From: Spirochaetota bacterium
GTDB taxonomy: Bacteria; Spirochaetota; UBA4802; UBA5550
Assembly: GCA_036821145.1 (NCBI GenBank)
Contig: DAISJZ010000001.1
Coordinates: 19,900 to 83,899, forward strand
Direction of reading: 5' to 3'
Length of the DNA stretch: 64,000 nucleotides
In this document: positions 8,524 through 55,574 of the stretch, piece by piece
Layout: each line of letters begins with the position of its first letter
How positions within the stretch are numbered: position 1 is the first letter of the stretch
Notes under the pieces: generated by a model
Databases searched by the model: none
Told to the model about the DNA's origin: nothing
What the model saw: the letters and a program-made list of their open reading frames with translations, nothing else
Translations under genes and position numbers: made by a program

Positions 8524-9780
8524 ATGAGCTATATTATAAGTCATATCAGTATTGCTTTAGTATTTCTCCTTCTATCAGCTTTTTTTTCAGGTACTGAAAC
8601 TGCTTTGTTTTCTCTAAAGAAAGCTGATTTACACCGTTTATCAATATCTGAAAAGAGCAGCGAACGCGCGATAGCTACACTCATGAATACCCCGGACAGG
8701 ATTCTTGCAACTATATTGATCGGTAATCTTTTTGTAAACCTGTCACTTGCTGCAATTGTTACCAATTTTCTTCTTGGATATTTCGGAAACTATGGACATT
8801 TTATTTCAATTTCAGTTGTTACTCCTCTTATTATTATCCTTTCAGAAATCACTCCCAAAGTTATAGCGGTAAATACTTATCTTAATTTCAGCAGAGCCAG
8901 CTTTCCGCTTATTCTTCTTTTTCATAAAATTTTTTATCCCGCGCGATTTATAACGATGAAATATACAGACCTGCTTACACGTATATTTAAACTTGATCTT
9001 ACACATGCCAACCTTACTGAAGAGGAACTCAGATTCGTAGTTAACACCGGAGAAGAGAAGGGGCTCATTGATAAACGTGAAAGTGATATTATAAAAAATG
9101 TTATGCGTTTTTCCGACAAAGAAGCATCAAATATTATGTATCCGCGTAACCAGGCGACTTTTATACAGTATGGTTCATCGATAGAACAGGCGATGGAAAT
9201 CATAATTGATAATGAACTTGTAAGAATACCTGTCTACAAAGAAGATTATGATGATATTGTCGGTTTCATTGATTCACGTGACTTAATGGCCTCTTATCTC
9301 GGCTACAAAAAAAATCTTAAAATAAATAAGTTTATCAAACCGATAGATTTTTTCCCTTTTTCAAAGGTGCTCACTGAACTCCTGGAAGACTTTCTCAAAA
9401 AGAAAATACAGATTGCGGTAATCGTTGATGAATACGGAGGTACAGCGGGGATTGTTACTTTGAGTTCCATACTATCATCTCTTCTTGGAAAGGAATTCGG
9501 AAAATGGGAAAATTACAAAAAATCGGGAATAAGATTAATAGACCAGGATCGTTATATAGTTTCCGGAAAACTGCAGCTTGATGAGTTTAATCTTTTCTTT
9601 AATGAAAAATTTACAAGTAATAACTCTGACACAATCGGCGGTTACGTGATCGAACAGCTTAATTTTTTCCCTACTAAAGGTGAGAAAATACAACTCAATG
9701 ATATTGAAATAACTGTTAAGACTGTCAGCAAGAGAAAAATAATGACCCTTGATGTATATGTAATGAGGACAAATGGTTGA
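8524..9780 (+). CDS. CNNM/HlyC/CorC family transporter (DUF21 membrane domain + CBS pair + CorC_HlyC), TlyC/GldE-like
   Basis: Four N-terminal TM helices; CBS pair; C-terminal transporter-associated domain; first of a tandem pair. Confidence 0.75.
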   Translation: MSYIISHISIALVFLLLSAFFSGTETALFSLKKADLHRLSISEKSSERAIATLMNTPDRILATILIGNLFVNLSLAAIVTNFLLGYFGNYGHFISISVVTPLIIILSEITPKVIAVNTYLNFSRASFPLILLFHKIFYPARFITMKYTDLLTRIFKLDLTHANLTEEELRFVVNTGEEKGLIDKRESDIIKNVMRFSDKEASNIMYPRNQATFIQYGSSIEQAMEIIIDNELVRIPVYKEDYDDIVGFIDSRDLMASYLGYKKNLKINKFIKPIDFFPFSKVLTELLEDFLKKKIQIAVIVDEYGGTAGIVTLSSILSSLLGKEFGKWENYKKSGIRLIDQDRYIVSGKLQLDEFNLFFNEKFTSNNSDTIGGYVIEQLNFFPTKGEKIQLNDIEITVKTVSKRKIMTLDVYVMRTNG

Positions 9781-11032
9781 GAACTGGAATTACAACACCT
9801 ACAGTTTTATGATAATTATTTGTATCTTTTTTTCTATGTTTTTTTCTGCTCTTGAAACTGCTATTGTTTCATCACGGAGAATTTCTCTTGAAGCACTGAG
9901 TATTGATGGTAAAAAAAGCGCGAAAAACAGTCTCAAGATACTCGATAACATGGAAAAAGCATTAAGCATGGTTCTTATCGGTAATAATATCACCAATATA
10001 TGCGCTACTGCTTTTATTACTTTCATTGTTACCAGGGCTCTTCAATTTAATGATACTGAACTTCTTGCTGTAACACTTACCCAGACTGTGTTCTTCTTGA
10101 TTTTTTGCGAAATAACGCCTAAAATAGTTTCTAAAGCAAAAGCTGAAAATTTTCTGATGATTTTCTCAATGCCTACACTTTCACTTATATGGATAATGAC
10201 ACCTGTTATCAATTTATCTCTTTTTGTTTCAGAGATGATAACCGGCAAATTTCACTTCAGTAATTCATCAAAAGATCCCGTAAAGACAAGGGATGACATA
10301 GATACACTTTTTCAGATAGGCCATAAAGAAGGTGTAATCGATGAAGAGAGGCAGGAATATGTCAGAGAGATCCTTTCTTTCAAAAACACTCTTGCATATG
10401 AAGTTATGACACCGGCAATCGATATTGTATCTCTGGAAGTTTCAGATTCAATAAGAGATGCTGTAAACCTTATAGCAAAAACTAAATTTTCAAGGATTCC
10501 GGTTTACGAGGAGAATGAAGATGAATTTATAGGCTATATCCACTACAGGGATATCATAGTTTCCAAACCTGAATCTATTAAAGAAATTCTTGTTAAACCT
10601 GACTTTGTTCCTGAAACAAAAAATATTTTTGAAATATTCAATGATATGCATAAAAACAGGACTCCTTTATTATTCGTAACAGATGAATATGGCGATATTA
10701 CCGGTCTCCTGACATTTGAAGATATAGCTGAAGAAATTGTCGGTGATATTCAGACTGATGATCACCCCGCAGAAAAATTTATTTCACAGATTAATGAGCG
10801 TAAATTTATCCTTAGCGGCAGGATGGATATAGATTATTTTCAAAGGTTTTTTTCAATTCCTGTTGAAAAACATCATTTTGAAACACTTGCGGGATTTGTT
10901 ATCAGTTTAGCAGGGGAAATTCCCGAAACCGGGGACAGAATTAAATATGGTGCATACGATTTTATAATAGAAGAAGTTAAAGGGAGATCTGTTGATAAAA
11001 TTCTCTTTATACTCCCTTCAGGAAAAAAATAG
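9773..11032 (+). CDS. CNNM/HlyC/CorC family transporter (DUF21 + CBS pair + CorC_HlyC), second tandem paralogue
   Basis: Same architecture as 8524..9780; start overlaps the upstream stop by 8 nt. Confidence 0.75.
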   Translation: MVENWNYNTYSFMIIICIFFSMFFSALETAIVSSRRISLEALSIDGKKSAKNSLKILDNMEKALSMVLIGNNITNICATAFITFIVTRALQFNDTELLAVTLTQTVFFLIFCEITPKIVSKAKAENFLMIFSMPTLSLIWIMTPVINLSLFVSEMITGKFHFSNSSKDPVKTRDDIDTLFQIGHKEGVIDEERQEYVREILSFKNTLAYEVMTPAIDIVSLEVSDSIRDAVNLIAKTKFSRIPVYEENEDEFIGYIHYRDIIVSKPESIKEILVKPDFVPETKNIFEIFNDMHKNRTPLLFVTDEYGDITGLLTFEDIAEEIVGDIQTDDHPAEKFISQINERKFILSGRMDIDYFQRFFSIPVEKHHFETLAGFVISLAGEIPETGDRIKYGAYDFIIEEVKGRSVDKILFILPSGKK

Positions 11033-29841: not shown

Positions 29842-30687
29842 TTAAAAAGTGTAAAAAACATGCTGTTTAGCCAGTCCGGCAAATCCGTATGATGATACTT
29901 TTCCTTCATTTTCCTCCCAGTTATCTCCATAATGAGTAAGGTACATTTTCTTTTTTGTATCTGCAGGGAAGTTGTTTAACTCATCAATTGAAGCGTGTAC
30001 TCCTCCGGTAAAGAACTGACAATCATGAAAAATTGCTTCGAAATTAAATTTACTTTCATAATGGTCAACCAGATCGTGATCATATCGCGTATCGCTTGTA
30101 AAAAAAACACGGTCATCGATTATTACACCACAGCTCCAGAATGAACTCTGCCAGTCATAAGATGAGTCAGGGATATGTTTTGTCCTCATAATTTTTATAT
30201 CGATATTACCAACTTTAACTCCATAAGTCTCCCGGTTATAATCAGGGAGCCATTGCGGTCTTATTATATCCCAGAAATCTTTGAAGTGAAGAACATCGCC
30301 GGCATCATCCTCATTATATTCACATCCTCCTCTCATAGACATATCCCAGAGTATATGCTGATATGTTTCTGTTATAACCATTTTCGGTTTCTTGCGGGTA
30401 AAATATCTCCCCATTAGAGACACTTCTTCGAGTCCCCCGATATGATCAGCATGTGAATGGGTTATGAGAAAATTTTGTATCTCTGTGACAGGGAGATCCA
30501 GTTCAGAGAGAGCCTGAGGACATTTCGTTCCGCAATCTATTAAAAGATGATCTTTTCCTTTAACTATAAGAAGATTTGTCTGGTATTGTCTTTTTGTGAA
30601 AGCGCTGCCGGTACCAACAAAGAATAATTCAAGCTCTCCGTCATTAACAAGCGAAAGTTTTTTTTGCTCAAGAGTAACTGTTTTCAT
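29842..30687 (-). CDS. MBL-fold metallo-hydrolase
   Basis: HxHxDH motif THSHADHIGG and beta-lactamase-like layout. Confidence 0.7.
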   Translation of the reverse strand: MKTVTLEQKKLSLVNDGELELFFVGTGSAFTKRQYQTNLLIVKGKDHLLIDCGTKCPQALSELDLPVTEIQNFLITHSHADHIGGLEEVSLMGRYFTRKKPKMVITETYQHILWDMSMRGGCEYNEDDAGDVLHFKDFWDIIRPQWLPDYNRETYGVKVGNIDIKIMRTKHIPDSSYDWQSSFWSCGVIIDDRVFFTSDTRYDHDLVDHYESKFNFEAIFHDCQFFTGGVHASIDELNNFPADTKKKMYLTHYGDNWEENEGKVSSYGFAGLAKQHVFYTF

Positions 30688-30775: not shown

Positions 30776-32809
30776 CTAATTAACCGGACTCCATTCAACT
30801 TCAACATCTCCTGTTATTTTATCCGGAGATTTTTCAGCTTCCCATATATATGTAGATTTACCATTTTTTGATCTGTCATCAATCGTACAGGTTTTATACT
30901 TGTCTCCTTCAGCATTAGGCATATATGCATTTTTTTCACTATGATAGTAACTGTCTATTGCAGAAATGTACCTTGTACCATCAGCCCAGATTTTTATCCC
31001 CTTGTTCTCACATTTCCCGTCAATAAATTCACCTATAAATCTGGAACCATCTGAGTAATACCAGACGCCTTTACCGTGAAGTTTATCTTTTTTAAAACCT
31101 CCGACATATTTATCACCAGAAGGGAGTATAAGCGCTCCATGATTTGTTTTTTGATCATTTTCAAAATTTCCAATATATTTTGCGCCAAACCATCTTGATT
31201 TACGTCCCCAGGTATAAATTCCATATCCATGTTTACGCCCGTTCAGCCACTCTCCGGTATATGAATCCCCGTCACCGGATGATGGAGATTTTTCACCCTT
31301 AAGAGATCCCTCAGCCCAATCTCCGTAAACTTTACTCAAAAGTTTACCCTTTGAGTCATATGTAAAAAGAGTTCCCTCACCATTCATCCCGGAATTTTTA
31401 AAATGCCCGGTATATTTAGATATTATATTTCCGTTTTTATCATAAGTAAAGAGCGTTCCTTCACCTTCAGGAATACCATCCACAACCTGTCCGAGATATT
31501 TAGTTATCAGTTTGCCATTCCTGTCATAAACAAACAGGACACCTTCTCCAGTCATTTTATCATCGCTGAATGTGCCAAGATATTTTTTTACAAGAATTCC
31601 CCTTTCATCATATTGAAAAAAAGACCCCTGGCCGTGACGATTACCGTTTTTATATTCTCCTATATACCTGGAACGTAGTATCCCTCTTTCGTCAAATTCA
31701 GAGTGAGTACCTTCTCCATCCTTTTCCCCGTTTTTAAATGAGCCTTCATATCTGGTAATTATTTTCCCTTTCGAATCATAACCGGTCAGTACGCCTTTCC
31801 CATCAAACCGTCCGTTTTTGAAGTTTCCAGCATATTCAGATTTAACTTTTCCGTCTTTATCATATACTGTTAATTTTCCTGAACCCTCAGGTAAACCAGA
31901 ATTAAAATTACCGGTGTACTTTGATGTGACCCTCCCTTCACTGTCATATGTAACAAGAACTCCTTTACCCTGCGGTTTACCGTTTTCGATTTCTCCCGTA
32001 TATTCAGAGATTTTTTTACCGCTGCTGTCAAAGGTAATGATGCCGGCATTCCCGTAAATTTTTCCATTTCTGTATTCACCGGTTATTGTGCTGATGAGAT
32101 TACCTGATTTATCGTAATTAGAGATCGTAACCTTTCCGCTTGGCCTGCCTTCGAAAAAATTTCCTTCAATTTTCCTGGCCAGATTGCCGTCTTTATCATA
32201 TTCATATAACACACCAGGGCCGTCAGGCAGACCATTGCTGAAATTTCCGATGTATCTGCTTTCTATTTTACCGTTGCTGCTGTATTTTATCAGTTCACCT
32301 TTGCCGTGAGGCTTATTATCTTTATAATCTCCGGAATAGGAACTGATTATTTTACCATTGGAATCATATTTAGTAAGCGTGCCTTTGTCATATTTATCAA
32401 AGGAACCGTCTTTCATTGTACCTTTGAATCTGCTTGAAACTTTACCGTTTTTATCATAATTGGTAACCAGTACTTCACCTTTAGTTTTACCGTTAGAAAA
32501 TTCTCCTTCGATTTCAGATTTAAGGCTTCCGTCATCATTATAAATAGAAAGCTTACCTTTTCCATGAGGTTTTCCGTCAGCGGTTTCCCCTTCATATTTA
32601 TAATTTTTAGACCTCAAAACGGTTTTCTTTGAATCGGCTTTTTCTTTTTCATCGGAGGTACGGATGTTAACCTGTTTATCTGCTTCCAGCTTGTTATCTG
32701 TCACCTGTTCACTGGATGGCTCAGTTTTCCTTGTTTGTTTTTTTGCAGTTTCACAAGCCCCGTTAAACAGGAATAGTGTTATAATAATTAAATAGAATAA
32801 ATTCTTCAT
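30776..32809 (-). CDS. large MORN-repeat lipoprotein (more than 20 MORN-like repeats)
   Basis: Signal peptide plus lipobox (LFNGC); repeating Y.G.F.NGK..G.G.L..Y..DG units along the whole protein. Confidence 0.75.
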   Translation of the reverse strand: MKNLFYLIIITLFLFNGACETAKKQTRKTEPSSEQVTDNKLEADKQVNIRTSDEKEKADSKKTVLRSKNYKYEGETADGKPHGKGKLSIYNDDGSLKSEIEGEFSNGKTKGEVLVTNYDKNGKVSSRFKGTMKDGSFDKYDKGTLTKYDSNGKIISSYSGDYKDNKPHGKGELIKYSSNGKIESRYIGNFSNGLPDGPGVLYEYDKDGNLARKIEGNFFEGRPSGKVTISNYDKSGNLISTITGEYRNGKIYGNAGIITFDSSGKKISEYTGEIENGKPQGKGVLVTYDSEGRVTSKYTGNFNSGLPEGSGKLTVYDKDGKVKSEYAGNFKNGRFDGKGVLTGYDSKGKIITRYEGSFKNGEKDGEGTHSEFDERGILRSRYIGEYKNGNRHGQGSFFQYDERGILVKKYLGTFSDDKMTGEGVLFVYDRNGKLITKYLGQVVDGIPEGEGTLFTYDKNGNIISKYTGHFKNSGMNGEGTLFTYDSKGKLLSKVYGDWAEGSLKGEKSPSSGDGDSYTGEWLNGRKHGYGIYTWGRKSRWFGAKYIGNFENDQKTNHGALILPSGDKYVGGFKKDKLHGKGVWYYSDGSRFIGEFIDGKCENKGIKIWADGTRYISAIDSYYHSEKNAYMPNAEGDKYKTCTIDDRSKNGKSTYIWEAEKSPDKITGDVEVEWSPVN

Positions 32810-46255: not shown

Positions 46256-46879
46256 TTATATTTTAAAAATATCGGGAAACACGTTATCCATTATGTAGTT
46301 AAAAAGATCATCAATCAGTAATTTAATATTGGCGATAATATCAGCATCTTTATCATGTTCAGCAGTATCAGTAATCATTTTCCAGATATAAGCTTCAGCT
46401 CCGAATGTCCTGCAGGACTGGAGAAAACCGGCTCCCTCCATATCAATAATATCAGCATATTGTCCGACTGCTTCTCTGTCTTCAGGAGTAATTACAGGCC
46501 TGTCAAGTGTGGCAAGGGTAGCATTTTTATAACCGGGCAGTATATCAGGCTTCATAAGCCTGATCTTTTTATTAATAAGTTTCGGCCTGTCAAAATCAAC
46601 AACCTGTGTAATATGCAGAATATCCCCTGTATTAAACCCTGTACGGAGCCCTCCGGCAGCGCCGGTATTTATTAGACGAAGCAAGCCGTATTCTCTTATA
46701 AGAATTGAAGCAGCTAAAGCGGCATATACTTTTCCTATACCGGATATTATCAGTTCAAAACTGTCAGATGAAAAAACCGGAAAAGGTTTTTCAACAGTTT
46801 TTTCAAGAGCAAGACCTTTTATAAAAGGTGAAGCCTCAAGCATTGTCGCCATGACAATGCCGGTTTTTTTATCTGTCAT
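46256..46879 (-). CDS. mqnB: PNP/MTAN-family nucleosidase, probably futalosine hydrolase
   Basis: PNP_UDP_1-like fold (GIGKVYAALAASIL, INTGAAGGL); adjacent and overlapping with mqnD. Confidence 0.5.
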   Translation of the reverse strand: MTDKKTGIVMATMLEASPFIKGLALEKTVEKPFPVFSSDSFELIISGIGKVYAALAASILIREYGLLRLINTGAAGGLRTGFNTGDILHITQVVDFDRPKLINKKIRLMKPDILPGYKNATLATLDRPVITPEDREAVGQYADIIDMEGAGFLQSCRTFGAEAYIWKMITDTAEHDKDADIIANIKLLIDDLFNYIMDNVFPDIFKI

Positions 46880-47730
46880 ATAATACCTTTCTCTGAAGCA
46901 AGAGTTTCCAGTACATGAACAGCTTCAAGACCTTCATTCCCCAGATCAACAGAATAATTATTAACATATAATTTAATGTGATGATTTATTACATCATCAT
47001 TCATCTCTGCTGCATGCTGTTTTATAAAACCGCGTGATTCGACAGGATGAAGAAAAGCATACTGAACAGATTCCCTTATCATCCGTTCAATAGATTTTGT
47101 CAGTTTATCCCCGAGAGATCTTTTTATTGCAATACATCCAAGAGGGATAGGCATACCGGTCTTAGTTTCCCACCATTCACCAAGATCAACAACCTGATTT
47201 AAGCCATAATCATTGTATACAAATCTCCCTTCATGAATAATAACACCTGCGTCAAATTCTCCTGAAACAATACCCGGCATAATATTATCAAATCTTGTAT
47301 AAACCAGATCTGCTGCATCAGGTAAATATATTTTCAGCAGAAGAGCTGCCGTTGTAAGCTCACCGGGCACAGCGATACGGTGATTCTTATCAAGACTGCC
47401 GGATTTGCTAACAAGTATAGGGCCGCAACCGAAACCGAGGGCTGCTCCGGATCTGAGAAGTTTATATTTCTCTTTTAATTTAAGCCAGGCATGAAATGAA
47501 AGCTTTGTAACATCATTCAACTCAGACATCGCGGCCCTGTTCAGCTCTTCTACATCAGTTATATCTGTTTCAAATAAGAGCCCGTCAGTATCAATAAGTG
47601 AATGTGTCATCGCATGGAAAATAAAAGTATCATTGGGACAGGGTGAAAATCCGAGTTTTAATGTTTTCATAATTGAATAATCATTTTTTAAAACTATCCC
47701 GGTCAATAAAAAAACCGGGTTTAAATGCAA
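46876..47730 (-). CDS. mqnD: 1,4-dihydroxy-6-naphthoate synthase (futalosine pathway of menaquinone biosynthesis)
   Basis: N-terminal LKLGFSPCPNDTFIFHA signature of the MqnA/MqnD family. Confidence 0.6.
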   Translation of the reverse strand: MHLNPVFLLTGIVLKNDYSIMKTLKLGFSPCPNDTFIFHAMTHSLIDTDGLLFETDITDVEELNRAAMSELNDVTKLSFHAWLKLKEKYKLLRSGAALGFGCGPILVSKSGSLDKNHRIAVPGELTTAALLLKIYLPDAADLVYTRFDNIMPGIVSGEFDAGVIIHEGRFVYNDYGLNQVVDLGEWWETKTGMPIPLGCIAIKRSLGDKLTKSIERMIRESVQYAFLHPVESRGFIKQHAAEMNDDVINHHIKLYVNNYSVDLGNEGLEAVHVLETLASEKGII

Positions 47731-48726: not shown

Positions 48727-49095
48727 TCAGCCCTGTGGTTCTCCATCCATAATACAGGTTCCGTTGAATACAGCACCGCTTTCCATCACTATTTCAGGTG
48801 CAACTATATCTGCGCTGGTTTTACTTTTCTTATAAAGCTCAATTTTTTTTGCAGCTTTTATTTTACCGTTGATATTTCCGCTCACAGAGACAGTTGTTGC
48901 ATTGATTTCAGCGCTGGTATTCGATTCCCTGCCGATTATAAGATGTCCGTCAGAGAATATTTTCCCTTCAAATTTACCTTTTATTTTAAGGGAATTTTTA
49001 AATTTCAAAGTCCCTTTAAATTCAATATCTTCAGCAATGACTGTATCAATTTTATTTTCATCTTCAACTAATTCTTTAATGTCAGACATTATCAT
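48727..49095 (-). CDS. bactofilin family cytoskeletal protein
   Basis: DUF583 beta-helical repeats (TLKFKNSLKIKGKFEGKIFSDGHLIIG...VSVSGNINGKIKAAKKIEL). Confidence 0.8.
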   Translation of the reverse strand: MIMSDIKELVEDENKIDTVIAEDIEFKGTLKFKNSLKIKGKFEGKIFSDGHLIIGRESNTSAEINATTVSVSGNINGKIKAAKKIELYKKSKTSADIVAPEIVMESGAVFNGTCIMDGEPQG

Positions 49096-49222
49096 CTCCG
49101 GAATTTTTATAATTGTAAATAATAAACCGGTACTATTTTATTGTCAAACAAAAAGGTATTGATTTCTCTTATTATTAGTACTCTTTGTAATACAGGTTTC
49201 AATTCAAATAAAGAAGGGAAAA

Positions 49223-49546
49223 ATGGAAGATATACTTATAAAAGCTAACGAACTGGGCCTCTTGATTAAAAAAACAGATGCCTGCAAAAATTTCGAAAAA
49301 CTGTCTGCAGAAATAGAGCAAGATGAAGATGCATCTTCACTCCTGAATAAATATAACGAAATTGCTGAAACAATTCAGAAAAAACAGGAATCAGGGGATA
49401 CAGTTGAAAAATATGAACAGGAGATGTTTAAAGCCCTCACAGATACAGTTACCGGGAATAACCTGATACTTGAATATCTTAAAGCAAGGGATATATATAT
49501 TGATCTTCTAATGAAAATTCATAACTCGATTAGCGGGGAAAAATGA
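49223..49546 (+). CDS. YlbF/YmcA (UPF0342)-like helical regulatory protein
   Basis: 107 aa; size and helical pattern resemble the YlbF/YheA/YmcA family. Confidence 0.4.
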   Translation: MEDILIKANELGLLIKKTDACKNFEKLSAEIEQDEDASSLLNKYNEIAETIQKKQESGDTVEKYEQEMFKALTDTVTGNNLILEYLKARDIYIDLLMKIHNSISGEK

Positions 49547-49757
49547 TTTTTTTGATTCTATTTTAAAATATCGTCCCGCCCTAAAAACTCTTGACGGATT
49601 ATAATTTTAAGATAAAAATTATACTATAAGATTTAAAATATTTGAAATCTATCCGGATTTTTTATATTTTTATTATAACATTTTTGGTATTCTTTTCCCT
49701 TATTTCGCTGTATATTATACCGGTATACGGCAATCAAAAAAAATAGAGGGTGGTGAA

Positions 49758-50285
49758 ATGCAACCTGATTTAAATAATTTAAAAGCAAAAATTCAGGCTA
49801 ACAGGGATTTTATCGACAGGATAACTGTACAGATACCTTTTTTCAAGGGATACGTCGAAAAATCTGAAAATTATGATGCTGACAGGATCATAAGAGAATT
49901 CATTGCAGATAGAATTCTTTCAACTAAAAAAAGTTTAAATGTGATGTCCGGTGACCTTGTTAAAAGCGGCGATCTTGCTATGATTCAGGAGATTGATTCA
50001 ATTCAGAATCTGCTTGAAGGCCTTCTGAAAAAAGTTCAGTATGCTGATTATGGTGTAACCGGCGGTTTTTCCAGAATAAAAATCACCGAAGATGATCAGA
50101 ACAGGCTCCTTGAGTACGACTGGAGGCTTATATCTTCATTTGATGAAATAAACAGTTCCACCTCAAATATGCAGACACTCCAGGGTGATTCGCTGCTTCA
50201 GGAGTTAAAAAACCTGAAACAGAAAATCCGTGATTTTGATAAAAGTGTTGATGACAGAAAATATGTGATTATGGAGGTTATATAA
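49758..50285 (+). CDS. hypothetical coiled-coil protein, first gene of the SPFH/DUF4178/DUF350/SpeE cluster
   Basis: 175 aa, no PspA/IM30 N-terminal helix signature; its stop is 1 nt before the next start, so translationally coupled. Confidence 0.4.
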   Translation: MQPDLNNLKAKIQANRDFIDRITVQIPFFKGYVEKSENYDADRIIREFIADRILSTKKSLNVMSGDLVKSGDLAMIQEIDSIQNLLEGLLKKVQYADYGVTGGFSRIKITEDDQNRLLEYDWRLISSFDEINSSTSNMQTLQGDSLLQELKNLKQKIRDFDKSVDDRKYVIMEVI

Positions 50286-50286
50286 A

Positions 50287-51414
50287 ATGGCATTACTGGA
50301 TGTAGTACAATGGGATAATAAACAGGGAGAAGTTATTTCGAAGTTTGAAGAAGGTGCAATTGCTCTTGGTTCGCAGCTTATAGTAAAAGAAGGGCAGGAG
50401 GCTATTTTTTTTAAAAACGGACAGGCCCTTGATTCTTACGGCCCGGGTCGTCATACTCTTTCAACAGGTAACGTTCCAATCCTTGAAAAACTTGTAAATC
50501 TCCCCTTTGGCGGAAAAACTCCCTTTCCCGCAGAAGTATATTTTATAAACAAAACTGAGATACCGAATCTGAAGTGGGGAACAAAGCAGCCTATGCAGCT
50601 TATGGATCCTGTATACAACCTCCCTGTGCCGATAAGGGCATTCGGCTCCTATTCAATACGTATTACAGATATAAAATCATTTCTTGTAATGGCTATCGGA
50701 ACATGGCGTGCATTTACAACAGAGGCAATCGGAACAGCATTAAGGGATATGGCAATTCTCCCCAAGGTCCAGGATCTTGTCGCTGAATTCATGATAAAGC
50801 AGAATATAACGATACTCAAACTCCCGGCTTATTACGATGAAATAGGTGCCGGCGGTAAAGCGAAACTTATTGAAGACTTTACAAGCTTTGGTGTAGAGCT
50901 TCTGAGGTTCGCTGTCGAATCAATCAATATACCTGATGATGATGAAAATGTAAAGCGGCTTAAGAAAGCACTTGCTGATAAAGCTGAAATGAACATCATG
51001 GGTGAAGACTACAAAACAAAAAGAACTTTTGATACTATGGAAAAAGCTGCGTCCAACGAAGGAATGGCCGGCGGTATGGTTGGTGCCGGAATGGGTGTAG
51101 GTATGGGGCAGCAGATGGGAGCCATGATGGGCTCAGTAATGGGCAATGCTGCTCCCGGACAGCAGCAGGGACAACAGGTTGCATGTCCCAAGTGTAATGC
51201 GATGAACCAGGCTGGCGCAAAATTCTGCCATTCCTGCGGCGCACAGATGCAGGTTCCTCAAGGGGTATGTCCTGCATGTAAAGCAAATGTTCCTGCCGGA
51301 ACAAAATTTTGCCCTTCATGCGGAGCTAATTTACAGGCAGTAAAATGCAAGAACTGCAACGCTGATCTTCAACCCGGCGCTAAATTCTGTCCGGAATGCG
51401 GTTCACAACAGTAG
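50287..51414 (+). CDS. YdjI-like SPFH (Band_7_1) protein with Gly/Met-rich linker and three C-terminal zinc ribbons
   Basis: Clear similarity to B. subtilis YdjI (GSQLIVKEGQEAIFFKNGQ, AEVYFINKTEIPNLKWGTKQP, PIRAFGSYSIRITD); tail has CPKCN..CHSCG, CPACK..CPSCG, CKNCN..CPECG. Confidence 0.75.
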   Translation: MALLDVVQWDNKQGEVISKFEEGAIALGSQLIVKEGQEAIFFKNGQALDSYGPGRHTLSTGNVPILEKLVNLPFGGKTPFPAEVYFINKTEIPNLKWGTKQPMQLMDPVYNLPVPIRAFGSYSIRITDIKSFLVMAIGTWRAFTTEAIGTALRDMAILPKVQDLVAEFMIKQNITILKLPAYYDEIGAGGKAKLIEDFTSFGVELLRFAVESINIPDDDENVKRLKKALADKAEMNIMGEDYKTKRTFDTMEKAASNEGMAGGMVGAGMGVGMGQQMGAMMGSVMGNAAPGQQQGQQVACPKCNAMNQAGAKFCHSCGAQMQVPQGVCPACKANVPAGTKFCPSCGANLQAVKCKNCNADLQPGAKFCPECGSQQ

Positions 51415-51423
51415 GAGGCGTTT

Positions 51424-52026
51424 ATGTCATCAATGAATTGCGCTTCCTGCGGAGCACCTGTTGAAATAGTAAACAGGTTCAGCAAAGTGCTTGTCTGCGG
51501 CTACTGCGGAACACACCTTAAGGTAAGTGATGGCGGTGTAGCAGTCGCAGGTAAATATCCGAAACTCGCTGATTTCCCTTCAATATTCCAGGTTGGTACC
51601 CGTGGTACTATCCTGGGTAAAACATTCACTGCTCTCGGCAGAATGAGGTATAAATACCAGGGAGGGCATTTTGACGAATGGTTTATCGAATACGATGGAG
51701 ACAAAGCCTGGTTCACTGAAGACGACGGAACATACACTCTTTACACTGATCTCTTTGAAGCAGTAGAAATACCTGACATATCCACTGTAAAAGCAGGGCA
51801 GAATATGCTTGTAGGGGATAAAAAGGTTATGATTAAGGAAAAGGGTAAAGCTGTTGTGGAAGGGGGGGAAGGTGAACTCTTCTTTTACGTGGAACCGGGT
51901 TCCGAGGTTATATATCTTGATGCAGTATCAGAAGGGAAAAAAGTTTCAATAGAATATACAGAGGATGAAGTGGAAATGTTTACCGGCCGCCCTCTGCTGA
52001 AGCGCGATATAGTGGTCGAGGGGTAA
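51424..52026 (+). CDS. N-terminal zinc ribbon + DUF4178 domain protein (YdjG-like)
   Basis: CASCG...CGYCG zinc ribbon, then a DUF4178-like core (ILGKTFTALGRMRYKYQGGHFDEWFIEYDGDKAWFTEDDG). Confidence 0.55.
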   Translation: MSSMNCASCGAPVEIVNRFSKVLVCGYCGTHLKVSDGGVAVAGKYPKLADFPSIFQVGTRGTILGKTFTALGRMRYKYQGGHFDEWFIEYDGDKAWFTEDDGTYTLYTDLFEAVEIPDISTVKAGQNMLVGDKKVMIKEKGKAVVEGGEGELFFYVEPGSEVIYLDAVSEGKKVSIEYTEDEVEMFTGRPLLKRDIVVEG

Positions 52027-52065
52027 GCCCGCTTTAATCATTTTTTTAGTCAAACAGAGGATGCC

Positions 52066-53472
52066 ATGGGAGATAATAGAGAAGAACTTCAGGCATTGAA
52101 ATGTCCTTCTTGCAGCGGTGACCTTGTTAAAAGCTCACGCACTTATTATGATGATGACGAGGAGGAGAACGTAACTGTTCCCCTGGCCAGATGTGTTCAA
52201 TGTAATACTGAATACGATCAGCATACTAAGGAATACTACGAAGTTTTTGCCGATGAACTTACCGCTGACAAGGATTCAACTGTTTTTAAACTCGGTCTTA
52301 AAGGGAACTTGAAAGGTGTACAGTATGAAATCATCGGCAGGCTCCGCTACCAGGATGAGGAGGAATACGAAAAATCCACCTGGGATGAATGGGTAGCTGT
52401 AACTGATGAGGGCTCCTACCATTATTTCGTGGAAGAGGATGGTGAAATTTATTCCTATTCAGAATACACTCCTGATTCTATTGACATGGAATCCAGCAGC
52501 AGTTATATCGAATTTGACGGACGTAATGTAAACAAATCTGACGGATATAACGCAAGAATAGTACTTGCTGAAGGTGAACTTCCATGGCAGCCGGAAATAG
52601 GTGAAGCTGTTCTCTGCTACGATTTTAAAAACGGCGGAAAACATTATACAATTGAGCAGTCTGAAGATGAAGTTTCAATAACTCAGGGTGAAAGGATAAA
52701 ACACGGTGAGATAATTGAAGCATTTAATATTGAAAGCTATAAAGAAATTTACCAGAATACAGTTAAAAAAAGATCCGAATTTCAATGGAAAAGCCGTATA
52801 TATTTAACAGGCATGTGTCTTTCTTTTGCTGCTACAATTTTCAGCTGTTTCAGCAGTACCCCTGTTAAAGGTGTAATGAACACAAAACAGATCCTTACCA
52901 GTAATGAGACGGTACAGGATACTGAGGGTAGAATATATAGCAGCCAGATCCTATACGGACCATTTGAAATCAGCCAGGGTAATTCGCTTTATGATGTCGG
53001 TTTCTCGGTAGATGAGTCTGTTCAGAATTTCAATCTGGAGTGGCAGTCCATCAGAATGATGCTCGTCAGTGAAAAAAGACTGCAGGAAACCGTAAAAGAT
53101 GGAATAAATAATCCGTCCGTACTTAAAGATTTATTTGAAGAGATTGATGCAATGCCTGAACCTGTTGAATCATTTATAATAACCGGTGATTTCTGGGATG
53201 AAGAGGGCCGAGACAGTGACGGATACTGGCATGAATCAGATCTCAGCTTCAGTAATGATTTTGTACTGGATGAAGCAGGGAAGTACTATGTCTATCTTGA
53301 ACTCTACAATAATAAAATGCGAAGAGCTGATTCAGTGATTGTTGAAATATCAAGAGTTAAAGGTTACAGGTATTATATATTTGCATTTATAATATTCTTT
53401 ATTCTCTGGGGAGTCAGCCAAATCCGTTCCAAATCTTACAATGAACTCCCCTTTGAAATGTCAGGGGTATAG
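52066..53472 (+). CDS. zinc ribbon + DUF4178-like domain protein with extra ~250-aa unknown region and C-terminal TM anchor
   Basis: CPSCSG...CVQCN ribbon; DUF4178-like LKGVQYEIIGRLRYQDEEEYEKSTWDEWVAVTDEGSYHYFVEEDGEIY; C-terminal YYIFAFIIFFILWGV. Confidence 0.5.
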   Translation: MGDNREELQALKCPSCSGDLVKSSRTYYDDDEEENVTVPLARCVQCNTEYDQHTKEYYEVFADELTADKDSTVFKLGLKGNLKGVQYEIIGRLRYQDEEEYEKSTWDEWVAVTDEGSYHYFVEEDGEIYSYSEYTPDSIDMESSSSYIEFDGRNVNKSDGYNARIVLAEGELPWQPEIGEAVLCYDFKNGGKHYTIEQSEDEVSITQGERIKHGEIIEAFNIESYKEIYQNTVKKRSEFQWKSRIYLTGMCLSFAATIFSCFSSTPVKGVMNTKQILTSNETVQDTEGRIYSSQILYGPFEISQGNSLYDVGFSVDESVQNFNLEWQSIRMMLVSEKRLQETVKDGINNPSVLKDLFEEIDAMPEPVESFIITGDFWDEEGRDSDGYWHESDLSFSNDFVLDEAGKYYVYLELYNNKMRRADSVIVEISRVKGYRYYIFAFIIFFILWGVSQIRSKSYNELPFEMSGV

Positions 53473-53481
53473 GGGTGTACT

Positions 53482-53676
53482 ATGATACGAAGTGTAATAA
53501 TATCATTACTTCTTTTCGGCGGAGCAGCGGCTCTTACAATGAATAACATCGGCTATTCAGGTGCAGGTAAAGAATATCACAAAAAAGTCAGAGATGAAAG
53601 AAAATCTCTCAGGGCTGGAAGCGGTTATTATGTTCCATATCATGGCGGTTCAGGCAGTTTTAGAACAGGCAAATAA
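53482..53676 (+). CDS. small membrane/secreted peptide (64 aa)
   Basis: N-terminal hydrophobic helix then Gly/Ser-rich tail; tightly spaced within the cluster. Confidence 0.3.
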   Translation: MIRSVIISLLLFGGAAALTMNNIGYSGAGKEYHKKVRDERKSLRAGSGYYVPYHGGSGSFRTGK

Positions 53677-53714
53677 TTTAATATAAGAATATAAACTCAG
53701 GGGGTAATAAATTT

Positions 53715-53987
53715 ATGGATTGGACAATGATCCTTTATGGCGTAGTAGATACAGTGATTTATTCACTGATTGGCGTTATTCTGATGGGGTTAGGTTTTCT
53801 GCTTATTTCTTTTTTCACTCCATTTTCAATTAAGAAGGAGATTGAAGATGATCAAAATATCTCTCTCGGGATTATTATAGGAGCCGTTATTCTCGGCATA
53901 GCTATAATTGTTGCATCAGTAATATCCTCACCTTCAGCAAGTGTTCCTAAAGGCGCTCCTGCTCAGAATATCGAGCAACAGAAATAG
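53715..53987 (+). CDS. DUF350 (YjfL-like) two-TM membrane protein
   Basis: 90 aa with two TM helices separated by an acidic loop (KKEIEDDQNISLG), as in DUF350. Confidence 0.5.
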   Translation: MDWTMILYGVVDTVIYSLIGVILMGLGFLLISFFTPFSIKKEIEDDQNISLGIIIGAVILGIAIIVASVISSPSASVPKGAPAQNIEQQK

Positions 53988-53990
53988 AAA

Positions 53991-55517
53991 GTGAAATATA
54001 TACTCAACAAAAACGAACAGAGGATACTCTTATTCTCTGTTTTTATTTTATCCCTCTGCGGAATTATTTATGAGCTTGTACTGGGCTCTCTTGCTTCTTA
54101 TCTGCTCGGGAACCCGGTGCAGCAGTATTCCATAACAATCGGTGTATTCCTCAGTTCAATGGGACTCGGCTCCTATCTTTCACGTTTTTTCGAAAAAAAT
54201 CTTCTTCAAACTTTTGTCAGAGTTGAGATAGCCCTTGGTCTGGTTGGCGGTCTTTCTGTAATTATTCTGAATTATCTGTTTTCGTTTTCAGCTTCATTTT
54301 ATGCTCTTCATGTATTTTTTCTCACAATTATTGGAACCCTTGTTGGACTTGAAATACCATTACTCACCAGAATTCTTAAAAGTTACGGAGCGCTTAAAGA
54401 TATTATCTCCAGCGTCTTAACACTGGATTACATAGGAGGGCTTGCCGGCTCTCTCCTTTTTCCTCTTATTCTATTCCCCTACGCAGGGAGGTTCCTGACT
54501 TCCCTGATAGTTGGAATGATGAATATCATCGTTGCTGTTTATGTTATTTTGAAAATACAGGATTATCGGGAAAGACGGAAAGATATAACTTTTGCAATTG
54601 CTTCACTGCTTATCCTTGCAGTTCTTGCATTCAACTCGGACTGGATAAATGCTATTCTGCAGAAAAAAATGTTCTATGATGACATTGTATTCTCAAAGAG
54701 ATCCAAATACCAGGAGATAGTACTTACAAGAAACGGTGATGACTTCAGACTCTATCTTGACGGTTCACTTCAGTTTTCAACATCTGATGAATACAGGTAT
54801 CACGAAATGCTCGTATACCCGGCTATTCTTGCTTCACAATCAGATGCCTCCCGGATACTGGTCATGGGAGGCGGGGATGGCCTTGCAGTAAGAGAAATAC
54901 TTAAATTTGAATCCGTTCATAGCATAACTCTTGTTGAACTTGATGGTTTCATGGCTGACCTTGCAAAGAATAACTCGACAATGAGAATGATAAACAGAAG
55001 TTCACTTTTAAATCAGAAGGTAGAAGTTATTATTGGAGATGCTTATGATTATCTCATAAACAATCGTCAGGGTTATGATGTAATTATTGCTGACTTTACA
55101 GACCCGCATGATGAGACAATATCTAAACTCTACACTGTTGAATTTTTCAGACTGGTTAAAAGATCTCTTAAGCCTGGCGGGATTTTTGTAACCCAGTCAA
55201 CATCATCTCTTTTCGCAAGAGATGCTTTCTGGTGTATTCATAAAACAATGTCAAATGCATTTAAAAATGTCTACCCGTACCATGCATTTATACCTACTTT
55301 CGGAGACTGGGGATTTAACATGGCTTCTGATAAAAAATTGGATATATATGATGACAGGATGGAAAAAACCAGGGGGCGATTCTACAGCAGGGAAATTCTG
55401 ATATCTTCAACAGTGTTCCCGGATGATTCCTCAAAAATTTATACAGAAATTAACACCTTCAATAAACCGGTGCTTTATAAATATTACCTTAAGGGCTGGA
55501 AAAATTCAGATTATTAA
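53991..55517 (+). CDS. polytopic membrane domain fused to a spermidine-synthase-like aminopropyltransferase (SpeE family)
   Basis: GTG start; ~6-7 TM helices in the first ~220 aa; then SpeE-type Rossmann domain (ILVMGGGDGLAVREI, VELDGFMADLAK, IIGDAYDYL, VIIADFTDPHD). Confidence 0.75.
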   Translation: MKYILNKNEQRILLFSVFILSLCGIIYELVLGSLASYLLGNPVQQYSITIGVFLSSMGLGSYLSRFFEKNLLQTFVRVEIALGLVGGLSVIILNYLFSFSASFYALHVFFLTIIGTLVGLEIPLLTRILKSYGALKDIISSVLTLDYIGGLAGSLLFPLILFPYAGRFLTSLIVGMMNIIVAVYVILKIQDYRERRKDITFAIASLLILAVLAFNSDWINAILQKKMFYDDIVFSKRSKYQEIVLTRNGDDFRLYLDGSLQFSTSDEYRYHEMLVYPAILASQSDASRILVMGGGDGLAVREILKFESVHSITLVELDGFMADLAKNNSTMRMINRSSLLNQKVEVIIGDAYDYLINNRQGYDVIIADFTDPHDETISKLYTVEFFRLVKRSLKPGGIFVTQSTSSLFARDAFWCIHKTMSNAFKNVYPYHAFIPTFGDWGFNMASDKKLDIYDDRMEKTRGRFYSREILISSTVFPDDSSKIYTEINTFNKPVLYKYYLKGWKNSDY

Positions 55518-55522
55518 AAAAT

Positions 55523-55552
55523 AAAAAAAGACTGTTTGCACAGTCTTTTTTT
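55523..55552. terminator. bidirectional rho-independent terminator between the SpeE-like gene (+) and rpmB (-)
   Basis: AAAAAAA-GACTGT-ttgc-ACAGTC-TTTTTTT. Confidence 0.8.
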
Positions 55553-55574
55553 ATATGAAATTGATATTATTTCA

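What the first reader, a model, noticed from the sequence alone, without database searches (positions are those of the whole stretch)
49758..55517. PspA-less YdjI/YdjG-type SPFH + DUF4178 module joined to a DUF350 + membrane-fused spermidine-synthase module
Seven co-directional genes sit with 1-40 nt spacers, consistent with a single operon. In order they are:
- an unknown coiled-coil protein;
- a YdjI-like SPFH/Band_7_1 protein with three C-terminal zinc ribbons;
- a zinc-ribbon + DUF4178 protein (YdjG-like);
- a second, much longer zinc-ribbon + DUF4178 protein with an unknown ~250-aa insert and a TM anchor;
- a 64-aa membrane peptide;
- a DUF350 (YjfL-like) protein;
- an aminopropyltransferase (SpeE-like) fused to a ~7-TM domain.

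In Bacillus subtilis, ydjG-ydjH-ydjI follow pspA and YdjI tethers PspA to the membrane. In E. coli the PspA homologue YjfJ sits with DUF350 (YjfL) and a glutathionylspermidine-synthase-like gene. Here the two halves are joined, no PspA/IM30 gene is present, and a polyamine-synthesis catalytic domain is embedded in the membrane. I read this as a candidate undescribed membrane-stress / envelope-polyamine system.
Basis: partly seen in the sequence, partly recalled or inferred. Interest (0 to 1): 0.85.

Follow-up and report, generated by a model that had tools for sequence, protein, structure and literature searches.

The report
Spirochaete variant of membrane-polyamine operon
This is a real, conserved seven-gene operon that couples a membrane-embedded polyamine-making enzyme to scaffold-like and sensor-like membrane proteins; the operon type is widespread in bacteria and was already noted by comparative genomics, but its function has never been tested.

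Summary
Seven co-directional genes (49758-55517) are separated by 1-39 nt, and Pfam/NCBIfam recover every predicted domain: Band_7_1 with three zinc ribbons, two DUF4178 proteins, DUF350 and a 7TM-fused aminopropyltransferase.

In 80 loci from about 15 phyla anchored on the fused SpeE, DUF4178 lies upstream in 66 and DUF350 in 60. Band_7_1 heads the operon in 19 and PspA in only 2. The "joined halves without PspA" is therefore the common form. Ravi et al. 2024 already mention both the PspA form and a Band-7 form of this operon.

The window carries a Spirochaetota variant. It has a three-zinc-ribbon tail instead of SHOCT or one ribbon. It adds a clade-specific five-helix protein that is not PspA-like. 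It lacks the AdoMet decarboxylase, amine oxidase and polytopic protein found in most other versions.

New details found here:
- The long DUF4178 protein has two TM helices around an outer beta-sandwich.
- The 64-aa peptide belongs to a family that always ends in [H/G]-Lys.
- The positive-inside rule places the catalytic domain outside the membrane.

Function remains untested. Verdict: new variant of a known, uncharacterised kind.

The parts
49223..49546 (+). YlbF/YmcA-family gene. It is a conserved upstream neighbour within the Spirochaetota clade only, separated from g1 by a 211-nt leader, and is probably not part of the operon.
   Evidence: Pfam Com_YlbF 1.4e-16. Same position in L007 and L008. 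Not recurrent in other phyla.
49547..49757 (+). AT-rich leader, presumed to hold the promoter. No structured RNA was detected.
   Evidence: Two weak sigma-70-like matches at 49591-49619 and 49642-49670, not above shuffled background. No Rfam match at E <= 0.1. Sequence read.
49758..50285 (+). g1: clade-specific soluble five-helix-bundle protein, 175 aa. It is translationally coupled to g2 (1-nt spacer) and is not PspA-like.
50287..51414 (+). g2: cytosolic SPFH (Band_7_1) protein with a Gly/Met-rich linker and three C-terminal zinc ribbons, an architecture like YdjI/SamI.
   Evidence: Pfam Band_7_1 4e-47, DZR 6e-24. No hydrophobic segment. Six CxxC motifs conserved in L007 and L008. 27-31 % identical to the Band_7_1 proteins of acidobacterial and melainabacterial operons.
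51424..52026 (+). g3: soluble zinc ribbon + DUF4178 protein (the short paralog).
   Evidence: Pfam DUF4178 2e-11. No TM. A short and a long DUF4178 gene lie side by side in about half of the 80 loci, and single 630-690-aa proteins (probably fusions of the two) occur in about a dozen more.
52066..53472 (+). g4: long paralog. It has a cytoplasmic 4-Cys zinc ribbon and DUF4178 domain, then TM1 (~245-263), an outer beta-sandwich (274-430) with a conserved acidic/aromatic loop (FWDEEGRDSDGYWHESD, residues 376-392), TM2 (433-456) and a short tail.
53482..53676 (+). g5: small single-TM peptide with a Tyr/Gly/Arg-rich tail ending in Gly-Lys. It belongs to a positionally conserved family that always ends in [H/G]-K.
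   Evidence: No Pfam hit. HMM built from counterparts in other phyla scores 2e-16. All 37 genuine small TM ORFs found end in K. 64 of 69 loci have a frame ending in [HG]K in this slot, against a 1.2 % background. It corresponds in position to Ravi's 'LipoSIG+Ctha_1186+low-complexity' gene.
53715..53987 (+). g6: DUF350 (YjfL-family) small membrane protein, half the length of E. coli YjfL.
   Evidence: Pfam DUF350 1.4e-14. Two hydrophobic blocks. Present directly upstream of SpeE in 60 of 80 loci.
53991..55517 (+). g7: seven-TM domain fused to an intact aminopropyltransferase domain. The catalytic domain is predicted to lie on the outer face of the membrane.
   Evidence: NF002956 576 bits against a cutoff of 472. 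Pfam Spermine_synth 1e-38. Closest solved structures are thermospermine synthase 6bq2 (4e-41) and Thermus 1uir (2e-35), and the QxxDExxYHE, GGGDG and DFTDP motifs are intact. The family-invariant residues are all present. K+R counts alternate between loops across 49 homologs.
55521..55554 (.). Bidirectional intrinsic terminator between g7 (+) and the convergent ribosomal protein L28 gene (-).
   Evidence: The terminator scan reports a 15-pair palindrome made mostly of A/T pairs. Read directly, the sequence is AAAAAAAGACTGT-TTGC-ACAGTCTTTTTTT, a 6-bp G/C-containing core stem flanked by A and T runs.

Best explanation
The locus is the Spirochaetota version of a widespread, experimentally uncharacterised envelope operon. 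Its invariant core is a pair of zinc-ribbon/DUF4178 proteins, a small [H/G]K-tailed membrane peptide, a DUF350 membrane protein and a 7TM-fused aminopropyltransferase. It is often headed by a cytosolic SPFH (Band_7_1) protein.

Shown:
- The gene content, the conserved order and the intact catalytic motifs.
- The two-TM architecture of g4.
- The absence of PspA from the locus.

Inferred mechanism:
1. g7 sits in the cytoplasmic membrane and uses decarboxylated AdoMet to add aminopropyl groups to an amine acceptor at the membrane surface. By the positive-inside rule its catalytic domain faces the periplasm. The 7TM domain would supply or position a substrate.
2. g4 spans the membrane. Its outer beta-sandwich, with a conserved acidic/aromatic loop, binds a cationic envelope ligand, plausibly the polyamine product. 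It passes that state to its cytoplasmic zinc-ribbon/DUF4178 module, which pairs with the soluble paralog g3.
3. g3 and g4 recruit the cytosolic SPFH protein g2 to the membrane, as YdjG/YdjH recruit YdjI in B. subtilis. g2 and its clade-specific partner g1 then form a sub-membrane scaffold that organises or gates the enzyme complex.

The net role would be adjusting envelope polyamine content or charge for membrane homeostasis, without a dedicated PspA.
For: - Operon structure and domains.
- Conservation of the whole order within Spirochaetota.
- Conservation across phyla: DUF4178 in 66 of 80 loci, DUF350 in 60 of 80, and Band_7_1 in 19 of 80, always together with DUF4178 and DUF350.
- In-operon AdoMet decarboxylase in 35 of 80 loci and an amine oxidase in 44 of 62 tie the family to aminopropyl chemistry.
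- Catalytic motifs are intact, and the closest structures are thermospermine and long-chain aminopropyltransferases.
- g4 model and the cross-phylum two-TM layout plus loop motif.
- Topology inference. It agrees with Tat-like signals on at least 19 of 52 sister-operon oxidases and with the lipoprotein signal on the small protein in Ravi's Shewanella example.
- Precedent for membrane recruitment of a cytosolic SPFH-zinc-finger protein by operon-encoded membrane proteins: PMC8581546. PspA is dispensable for part of that system's function, according to the bioRxiv preprint 10.64898/2026.02.06.704340.
- The operon type is recognised in PMC11237479.
Against: - No experiment exists for any member, and every mechanistic step is inference.
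- The window and the Spirochaetota operons lack AdoMet decarboxylase, so the aminopropyl donor must come from an unseen gene.
- An outward-facing catalytic domain would need decarboxylated AdoMet outside the cytoplasm. That is unprecedented, and the prediction rests only on loop-charge statistics.
- No direct evidence links DUF4178 to Band_7_1 binding. YdjG is reported to have a different globular domain, and the YdjH-type TPM protein is absent.
- The fold searches gave no specific functional homolog for g1, DUF4178 or the outer domain.
- The census is biased. It kept the 80 best tblastn matches among the first 600 hits to one peptide pattern, so PspA-containing forms such as the Shewanella type may be under-sampled.
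Confidence: 0.55

Rival explanations
1. It is a PspA-dependent stress system after all. g2 recruits a PspA/IM30 protein encoded elsewhere in the genome, as YdjI does in B. subtilis, and the polyamine enzyme merely modulates PspA-mediated membrane repair.
For: YdjI tethers PspA (PMC8581546). Ravi et al. find the same SpeE/DUF350/DUF4178 set with CesT-PspA in Shewanella. Two of the 80 loci (L048, L025) carry PspA in the operon, and three more carry a PspA-like gene on the opposite strand downstream.
Against: 78 of 80 loci have no PspA in the operon, and there is none in the 64-kb window. g1 is not PspA-like. The 2026 SamGHI preprint reports PspA-independent roles. The rest of the genome could not be searched.
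Confidence: 0.2
2. It is a peptide-modification system. The small [H/G]K-tailed membrane peptide (g5) is the aminopropyl acceptor, giving a membrane-tethered polyamine. The SPFH and DUF4178 proteins assemble or regulate the modifying complex.
For: The terminal [H/G]-Lys is nearly invariant in an otherwise poorly conserved peptide across about ten phyla. The peptide gene sits next to DUF350 and SpeE. The peptide tail (lipoprotein signal in Shewanella) and the catalytic domain are predicted on the same side. The E. coli sister operon encodes YjfC, which RefSeq annotates as a peptide-spermidine ligase (Pederick 2023, cited in PMC10948618). Ravi et al. raise 'aminopropylation of other substrates'.
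Against: No aminopropyltransferase acting on a peptide lysine is known in bacteria. Clostridial versions lack the peptide. The terminal Lys could equally be a binding or sorting motif. The topology of the peptide tail is ambiguous by charge rules.
Confidence: 0.12
3. g7 is an ordinary housekeeping polyamine synthase, and its neighbours are functionally unrelated genes kept together by synteny alone.
For: g7 passes the equivalog cutoff for polyamine aminopropyltransferase. The locus sits among housekeeping genes (aspS, rpmB, phoH, ybeY).
Against: The neighbours recur in the same order and on the same strand across about 15 phyla whose flanking genes differ. The spacers are 1-39 nt. Sister operons contain dedicated AdoMetDC and amine oxidase genes.
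Confidence: 0.08
4. It is an anti-phage defence or mobile island.
For: SPFH and zinc-ribbon proteins occur in some defence systems. g7 has a weak PADLOC hit to mad2 through its methyltransferase-like fold.
Against: No other PADLOC hit. The chromosomal position between ylbF and rpmB is fixed throughout the clade. GC content is not anomalous. No mobility genes are nearby.
Confidence: 0.02

Closest known systems
PspA-free Band-7 variant of the polyamine-linked PSP operons (Ravi et al. 2024, mSystems, PMC11237479)
   Same: A Band-7/SPFH protein stands in place of the CesT-PspA pair, in an operon with DUF350 and polyamine enzymes. My census shows this form also carries the two DUF4178 genes, the small peptide and the 7TM-SpeE, in the same order as the window.
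   Different: The published description has a C-terminal 2TM+SHOCT tail on the Band-7 protein, plus AdoMet decarboxylase and polyamine oxidase. The window has three zinc ribbons, none of those enzymes and no polytopic TM353 protein. It also has an extra clade-specific gene, g1.
Shewanella oneidensis SO_3765-type operon: lipoprotein Ctha_1186, YjfL-TM, 7TM-Spermine_synth, CesT/DUF2170, PspA, DUF4178, RHH (Ravi et al. 2024, supplementary table)
   Same: It shares the small exported peptide, DUF350, the 7TM-SpeE and DUF4178 in one operon.
   Different: It contains CesT-PspA and an RHH regulator, one DUF4178 gene placed after PspA, and no SPFH protein. The gene order differs.
Bacillus subtilis pspA-ydjGHI (samGHI)
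   Same: g2 has the YdjI/SamI architecture: a cytosolic SPFH protein with a low-complexity linker and a zinc finger. It is encoded next to zinc-ribbon membrane proteins that could anchor it (PMC8581546).
   Different: The window has no PspA and no TPM-domain YdjH. YdjG is reported with a YpeB-like NTF2 domain rather than DUF4178. The B. subtilis operon has no polyamine enzyme and no DUF350.
E. coli yjfIJKLMC
   Same: It shares a DUF350 membrane protein (YjfL) in an operon with a polyamine-handling enzyme.
   Different: The enzyme there is the ATP-grasp peptide-spermidine ligase YjfC, not an aminopropyltransferase. YjfI, YjfJ (PspA), YjfK and YjfM have no counterparts in the window.
PRK03612 / NF002956 membrane-fused polyamine aminopropyltransferase; soluble thermospermine synthase ACL5 (6bq2) and Thermus SpeE (1uir)
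   Same: g7 scores above the curated cutoff over its full length. Its catalytic domain aligns to the solved enzymes at 4e-41 and 2e-35 with the motifs intact.
   Different: The solved enzymes are soluble. The substrate, product and orientation of the fused form are unknown.

Membership tests
7TM-SpeE / DUF350 / DUF4178 polyamine-linked envelope operon (Ravi et al. 2024) | Spermine/spermidine-synthase domain fused to an N-terminal ~7TM domain | tested here: met
   NF002956 576 bits against a cutoff of 472. Seven hydrophobic helices.
7TM-SpeE / DUF350 / DUF4178 polyamine-linked envelope operon (Ravi et al. 2024) | YjfL-family DUF350 membrane protein adjacent to the SpeE gene | tested here: met
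   Pfam DUF350 1.4e-14, 3 nt upstream of g7.
7TM-SpeE / DUF350 / DUF4178 polyamine-linked envelope operon (Ravi et al. 2024) | DUF4178 beta-rich protein in the operon | tested here: met
   Two copies, 2e-11 and 2e-14.
7TM-SpeE / DUF350 / DUF4178 polyamine-linked envelope operon (Ravi et al. 2024) | Small exported or lipoprotein peptide (Ctha_1186 plus a low-complexity tail) | tested here: inconclusive
   g5 matches an HMM of the positional counterparts from other phyla (2e-16) and shares the [HG]K end. No Ctha_1186 sequence or model was available to test identity, and g5 has no lipobox cysteine.
7TM-SpeE / DUF350 / DUF4178 polyamine-linked envelope operon (Ravi et al. 2024) | CesT/Tir-PspA pair (canonical form), or a Band-7 protein replacing it (variant form) | tested here: met
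   The variant form is met: Band_7_1 heads the operon, and no PspA or YjfI-like gene is present.
7TM-SpeE / DUF350 / DUF4178 polyamine-linked envelope operon (Ravi et al. 2024) | Band-7 variant carries a C-terminal 2TM+SHOCT tail, plus AdoMet decarboxylase and polyamine oxidase genes | tested here: not met
   g2 ends in three zinc ribbons with no SHOCT. No AdoMetDC, amine oxidase or TM353 is found anywhere in the window. These are present in other phyla.
B. subtilis PspA-YdjGHI (SamGHI) system | PspA/IM30 gene in the operon | tested here: not met
   No hit in the window. g1 against a PspA profile gives probability 0.4 %.
B. subtilis PspA-YdjGHI (SamGHI) system | [quoted passage not shown] | tested here: met
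   Band_7_1 plus a G/M-rich linker plus zinc ribbons, with no TM. The architecture is as described in PMC8581546. Orthology to YdjI itself was not tested because no YdjI sequence was available.
B. subtilis PspA-YdjGHI (SamGHI) system | TPM-domain membrane protein YdjH | tested here: not met
   None of the seven proteins has a TPM_phosphatase hit.
B. subtilis PspA-YdjGHI (SamGHI) system | YdjG: two zinc ribbons, a YpeB-like NTF2 domain and a TM | not tested
   No YdjG sequence was obtainable with these tools. According to PMC11237479 its globular domain differs from DUF4178. g3 and g4 share only the N-terminal zinc ribbon, and g4 also the membrane anchoring.
E. coli yjfIJKLMC operon | YjfI (DUF2170), YjfJ (PspA), YjfK (DUF2491), YjfM (DUF1190) and YjfC (ATP-grasp ligase) | tested here: not met
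   phmmer with the real E. coli proteins against all window ORFs gave no significant hit. The only family shared is DUF350, recovered by Pfam for g6 (1.4e-14); single-sequence phmmer with YjfL did not reach significance on g6 (E 0.09).
Polyamine aminopropyltransferase (SpeE superfamily) | Residues that bind decarboxylated AdoMet and catalyse transfer (GGGDG; D-x-x-D in D(F/L)(T/P)DP; Q...DE..YHE) | tested here: met
   Alignment to 6bq2 and 1uir, and the family-invariant columns Q241, Q261, Y270, H271, E272, G295, D318, D350, D368 and D371.
Polyamine aminopropyltransferase (SpeE superfamily) | Demonstrated aminopropyl transfer and an identified amine substrate | not testable with these tools
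   This needs enzymology. The nearest structures are thermospermine and long-chain polyamine enzymes, so the acceptor cannot be inferred.

The most novel reading that the evidence does not exclude
The whole operon family builds a membrane-tethered polyamine on the outer face of the cytoplasmic membrane. The outward-facing 7TM aminopropyltransferase would aminopropylate the invariant C-terminal lysine of the small [H/G]K peptide, or another envelope amine. The 7TM domain would deliver decarboxylated AdoMet across the membrane. The two-TM DUF4178 protein would sense the product and couple it to an SPFH scaffold. That would be the first bacterial peptide-lysine aminopropylation system and the first extracytoplasmic use of decarboxylated AdoMet.
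Probability: 0.12. Interest if true: 0.85.

Novelty: new variant of a known kind. Interest (0 to 1): 0.45.

Why it matters
This operon type occurs in at least 15 bacterial phyla, including cultivable genera such as Flavobacterium, Hymenobacter, Chitinophaga, Labrys and Archangium. It contains four protein families with no known function: DUF4178, DUF350, the [H/G]K peptide and the 7TM module of the fused SpeE. It may explain why many bacteria carry AdoMet decarboxylase linked to a membrane enzyme.

The window itself adds only a lineage variant. The comparative analysis it prompted gives concrete, testable handles:
- PspA is the exception rather than the rule in these operons.
- The SPFH partner swaps its membrane- or partner-binding tail (zinc ribbon, SHOCT or GYF-like).
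- The long DUF4178 protein is a transmembrane protein with an outer binding domain.
- The catalytic domain is predicted to face outward.
- The small peptide has a near-invariant terminal lysine.

Resolving the function would clarify how polyamines or aminopropyl modifications act in envelope homeostasis, and what SPFH scaffolds do when no PspA is present.

Tried and rejected
2. PspA elsewhere in the window: none.
3. Leptospira data for the LIMLP_15305 family: the only paper that mentions these tags lists a small RNA nearby and nothing about function.
4. Solved-structure relatives of DUF4178 and Band_7_1 by sequence: none useful.
5. Fold of DUF4178 and the g4 outer domain: only generic jelly-roll/CBM/Eph-LBD-like matches and a weak seipin-like resemblance. 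AFDB50 was unavailable.
6. Defence system: PADLOC negative apart from a generic methyltransferase-fold hit.
7. Riboswitch or leader RNA: no Rfam hit. Promoter matches are not above background.
8. Compartment-specific fused domains in longer SpeE family members, as an independent test of topology: none found.
9. Experimental literature on membrane-anchored spermidine synthases or DUF4178: none in the held library. Li et al. 2019 (Biochem J) is not held.
10. One window gene (30776-32809) could not be looked up by exact match.

Full report
OBSERVATION

The spacers are 1, 9, 39, 9, 38 and 3 nt, with Shine-Dalgarno-like sequences ahead of most starts. A 211-nt AT-rich leader precedes gene 1. An A-run/hairpin/T-run terminator at about 55524-55553 follows gene 7 and faces the convergent L28 gene.

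Pfam recovers every predicted family: Band_7_1 (4e-47) with three zinc ribbons in g2, DUF4178 in g3 (2e-11) and g4 (2e-14), DUF350 in g6 (1e-14) and Spermine_synth in g7 (1e-38). g1 and g5 have no Pfam hit. NCBIfam puts g7 above the curated cutoff of NF002956/PRK03612, the membrane-fused polyamine aminopropyltransferase (576 bits against 472). That fusion is therefore a catalogued family. An exhaustive search found about 1,050 clusters at 50 % identity with E <= 1e-30, most of them full length.

SOURCE AND LOCAL CONSERVATION

The window comes from an uncultured Spirochaetota bacterium. Exact copies of g2 occur in several MAGs and metagenomes, for example GCA_035396665.1. The g1 family (151 hits, nearly all about 175 aa) and full-length g4 (159 hits) were found only in uncultured bacteria, and every hit that carries a name is from Spirochaetota, apart from one or two labelled only 'bacterium'. 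In relatives whose g1 is just 43-45 % identical, the order ylbF | g1-g7 | rpmB is unchanged, with a LysR gene added after g7. A short contig shows the distal half again.

IS PspA HIDDEN IN THE LOCUS?

WHAT IS ALREADY KNOWN

Only one work in the searchable library mentions DUF4178 at all: Ravi et al. 2024 (PMC11237479).
[quoted passage not shown] The example is Shewanella SO_3765.
- It also describes polyamine-operon variants that lack the PspA pair. [quoted passage not shown]
- These are brief computational statements.
- I found no experimental work on any member.

[quoted passage not shown] It is recruited to the membrane by YdjG/YdjH and in turn recruits PspA (PMC8581546). A 2026 preprint reports PspA-independent roles for this complex.

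CENSUS

I aligned 49 diverse fused SpeE proteins and scanned one genome per GTDB species. The scan kept 80 loci from about 15 phyla. I clustered the neighbouring ORFs without prior assumptions, labelled them with HMMs, spot-checked them with Pfam and counted:
- DUF4178 upstream on the same strand: 66 of 80 loci. About half of the loci have a short (~210 aa) and a long (~440 aa) gene side by side, and about a dozen more have a single 630-690-aa protein, probably a fusion of the two.
- DUF350: 60 of 80.
- Band_7_1 heading the operon: 19 of 80, always together with DUF4178 and DUF350.
- AdoMet decarboxylase in the operon: 35 of 80.
- A flavin amine oxidase downstream: 44 of 62 loci with enough flank. 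At least 19 of 52 carry a twin-arginine motif.
- An unassigned polytopic protein ('TM353'): 25 of 62.
- PspA on the operon strand: 2 of 80 (Acidaminobacter and Frackibacter).
- g1: 0 of 80.

The Band_7_1 partner carries interchangeable tails: one zinc ribbon (11 proteins, mainly Acidobacteriota), SHOCT (8) or a GYF-like segment (2). The Spirochaetota have three zinc ribbons.

One caveat applies. The scan kept the 80 best tblastn matches among the first 600 hits to one peptide pattern, so forms far from the query, such as the Shewanella PspA type, are probably under-sampled.

WHAT IS PARTICULAR TO THE WINDOW

- It has the three-ribbon tail.
- It has the extra g1 gene, with a 1-nt spacer to g2 that suggests translational coupling.
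- It has no AdoMetDC, oxidase or TM353 in the operon or anywhere in the 64 kb.
- Within the clade it sits at a fixed position between ylbF and rpmB.

NEW ANATOMICAL DETAILS

1. g4 models confidently (pLDDT 88). It has a zinc ribbon with four invariant Cys and the DUF4178 beta domain. A long helix then ends in a hydrophobic stretch (~245-263). A ~160-residue beta-sandwich with a helical insert follows, then a second TM helix (433-456). K/R-rich flanks lie on the cytoplasmic sides. 39 of 43 long DUF4178 proteins from many phyla share the two-TM layout. They also share a conserved outer loop, (Y/F)(Y/W)xGxDx4W(S/H)E, which reads FWDEEGRDSDGYWHESD here. Fold searches give only generic binding-module sandwiches.
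2. g5 is not an orphan. A small TM peptide sits in the same slot across phyla. All 37 genuine ones found end in [H/G]-Lys. 64 of 69 loci have a frame ending that way, against a 1.2 % background. The clade keeps ...GK.
3. In 49 diverse fused SpeE proteins, K+R counts alternate between loops. The N-terminus and loops 2-3, 4-5 and 6-7 have 1.9, 1.1, 2.9 and 2.9. Loops 1-2, 3-4 and 5-6 have 0.18, 0.02 and 0.16. With seven helices this predicts an outward-facing catalytic domain. That fits the Tat-type oxidases and the lipoprotein signal on the Shewanella peptide, but it is an inference only.
4. The catalytic domain is intact and closest to thermospermine synthase and the Thermus long-chain polyamine enzyme.

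MECHANISM (INFERRED)

A membrane aminopropyltransferase modifies an amine at the membrane surface. The two-TM DUF4178 protein senses an outer ligand and, with its soluble paralog, recruits the cytosolic SPFH protein and g1 as a sub-membrane scaffold. The role would be envelope or polyamine homeostasis without a dedicated PspA.

The rivals are a PspA supplied from elsewhere in the genome, peptide-lysine aminopropylation of g5 (the most novel reading), a housekeeping enzyme with neighbours kept only by synteny, and a defence system. The last two are disfavoured by the cross-phylum conservation and by the PADLOC result.

VERDICT

It is a lineage variant of an operon type that is already described computationally and is widespread. 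Its function is unknown. Interest is moderate. It rests mainly on the uncharacterised family and the testable leads above rather than on anything unique to this window.

Noticed in passing
window 53482-53676 (g5); counterparts in L015-L092, e.g. L024:9583-9768, L040:8148-8333, L092:5589-5768: The small TM peptide between DUF4178 and DUF350 always ends in [H/G]-Lys (YHK, GGK, HHK, WGK, TGK) across about ten phyla, although the rest of it is poorly conserved. 64 of 69 loci show this, against a 1.2 % background. It may be a substrate or a recognition motif for the adjacent membrane aminopropyltransferase.
   Followed up: partly
window 53991-55517 (g7) and alignment A3: The loop-charge pattern across 49 homologs predicts that the aminopropyltransferase domain faces out of the cytoplasm. 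This would need decarboxylated AdoMet outside the cell membrane.
   Followed up: partly
L022:6492-6857, L022:11623-13254, L022:13251-14447 and equivalents in other loci: Most non-spirochaete versions of the operon also encode AdoMet decarboxylase and a flavin amine oxidase, which often carries a twin-arginine signal. They also encode a ~350-400-aa polytopic protein with no Pfam family. All three are missing from the window.
   Followed up: partly
L033, L039, L064, L072, L048, L025 (Clostridia and Halanaerobiales): Most Bacillota versions have two DUF350 genes, and four of the six lack the [H/G]K peptide. The two loci with in-operon PspA (L048, L025) belong to this group.
   Followed up: no
L007:15810-16715, L008:16000-16905: More distant Spirochaetota relatives have a LysR-type regulator directly after the SpeE gene. 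The window lacks it.
   Followed up: no
window 48727-49546: A bactofilin gene (-) and a YlbF/YmcA-family gene (+) lie just upstream. The YlbF gene keeps this position in distant clade members, so it may share regulation with the operon.
   Followed up: partly
window 46256-47730 (-): A PNP_UDP_1 nucleosidase lies next to a VitK2_biosynth (futalosine pathway) gene. Enzymes of this nucleosidase family can also cleave methylthioadenosine, the by-product of aminopropyl transfer.
   Followed up: no
window 29842-30687 (-): A metallo-beta-lactamase-fold protein scores above the Pfam cutoff for the anti-Pycsar Apyc1 family (5e-36, 125 bits against 50), in a bacterial chromosome context.
   Followed up: no
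window 30776-32809 (-): A 677-aa protein made largely of MORN repeats (2e-52), with a weak RHS-repeat hit.
   Followed up: no
L009 (E. coli NC_000913.3 4410133-4414191): RefSeq now names YjfC, from the DUF350-containing yjf operon, 'peptide--spermidine ligase'. Peptide-polyamine conjugation is therefore already a theme in a sister operon.
   Followed up: partly
window 8524-11032 (+): Two tandem CNNM/CBS/CorC_HlyC paralogs (418 and 419 aa) whose reading frames overlap by 8 nt.
   Followed up: no
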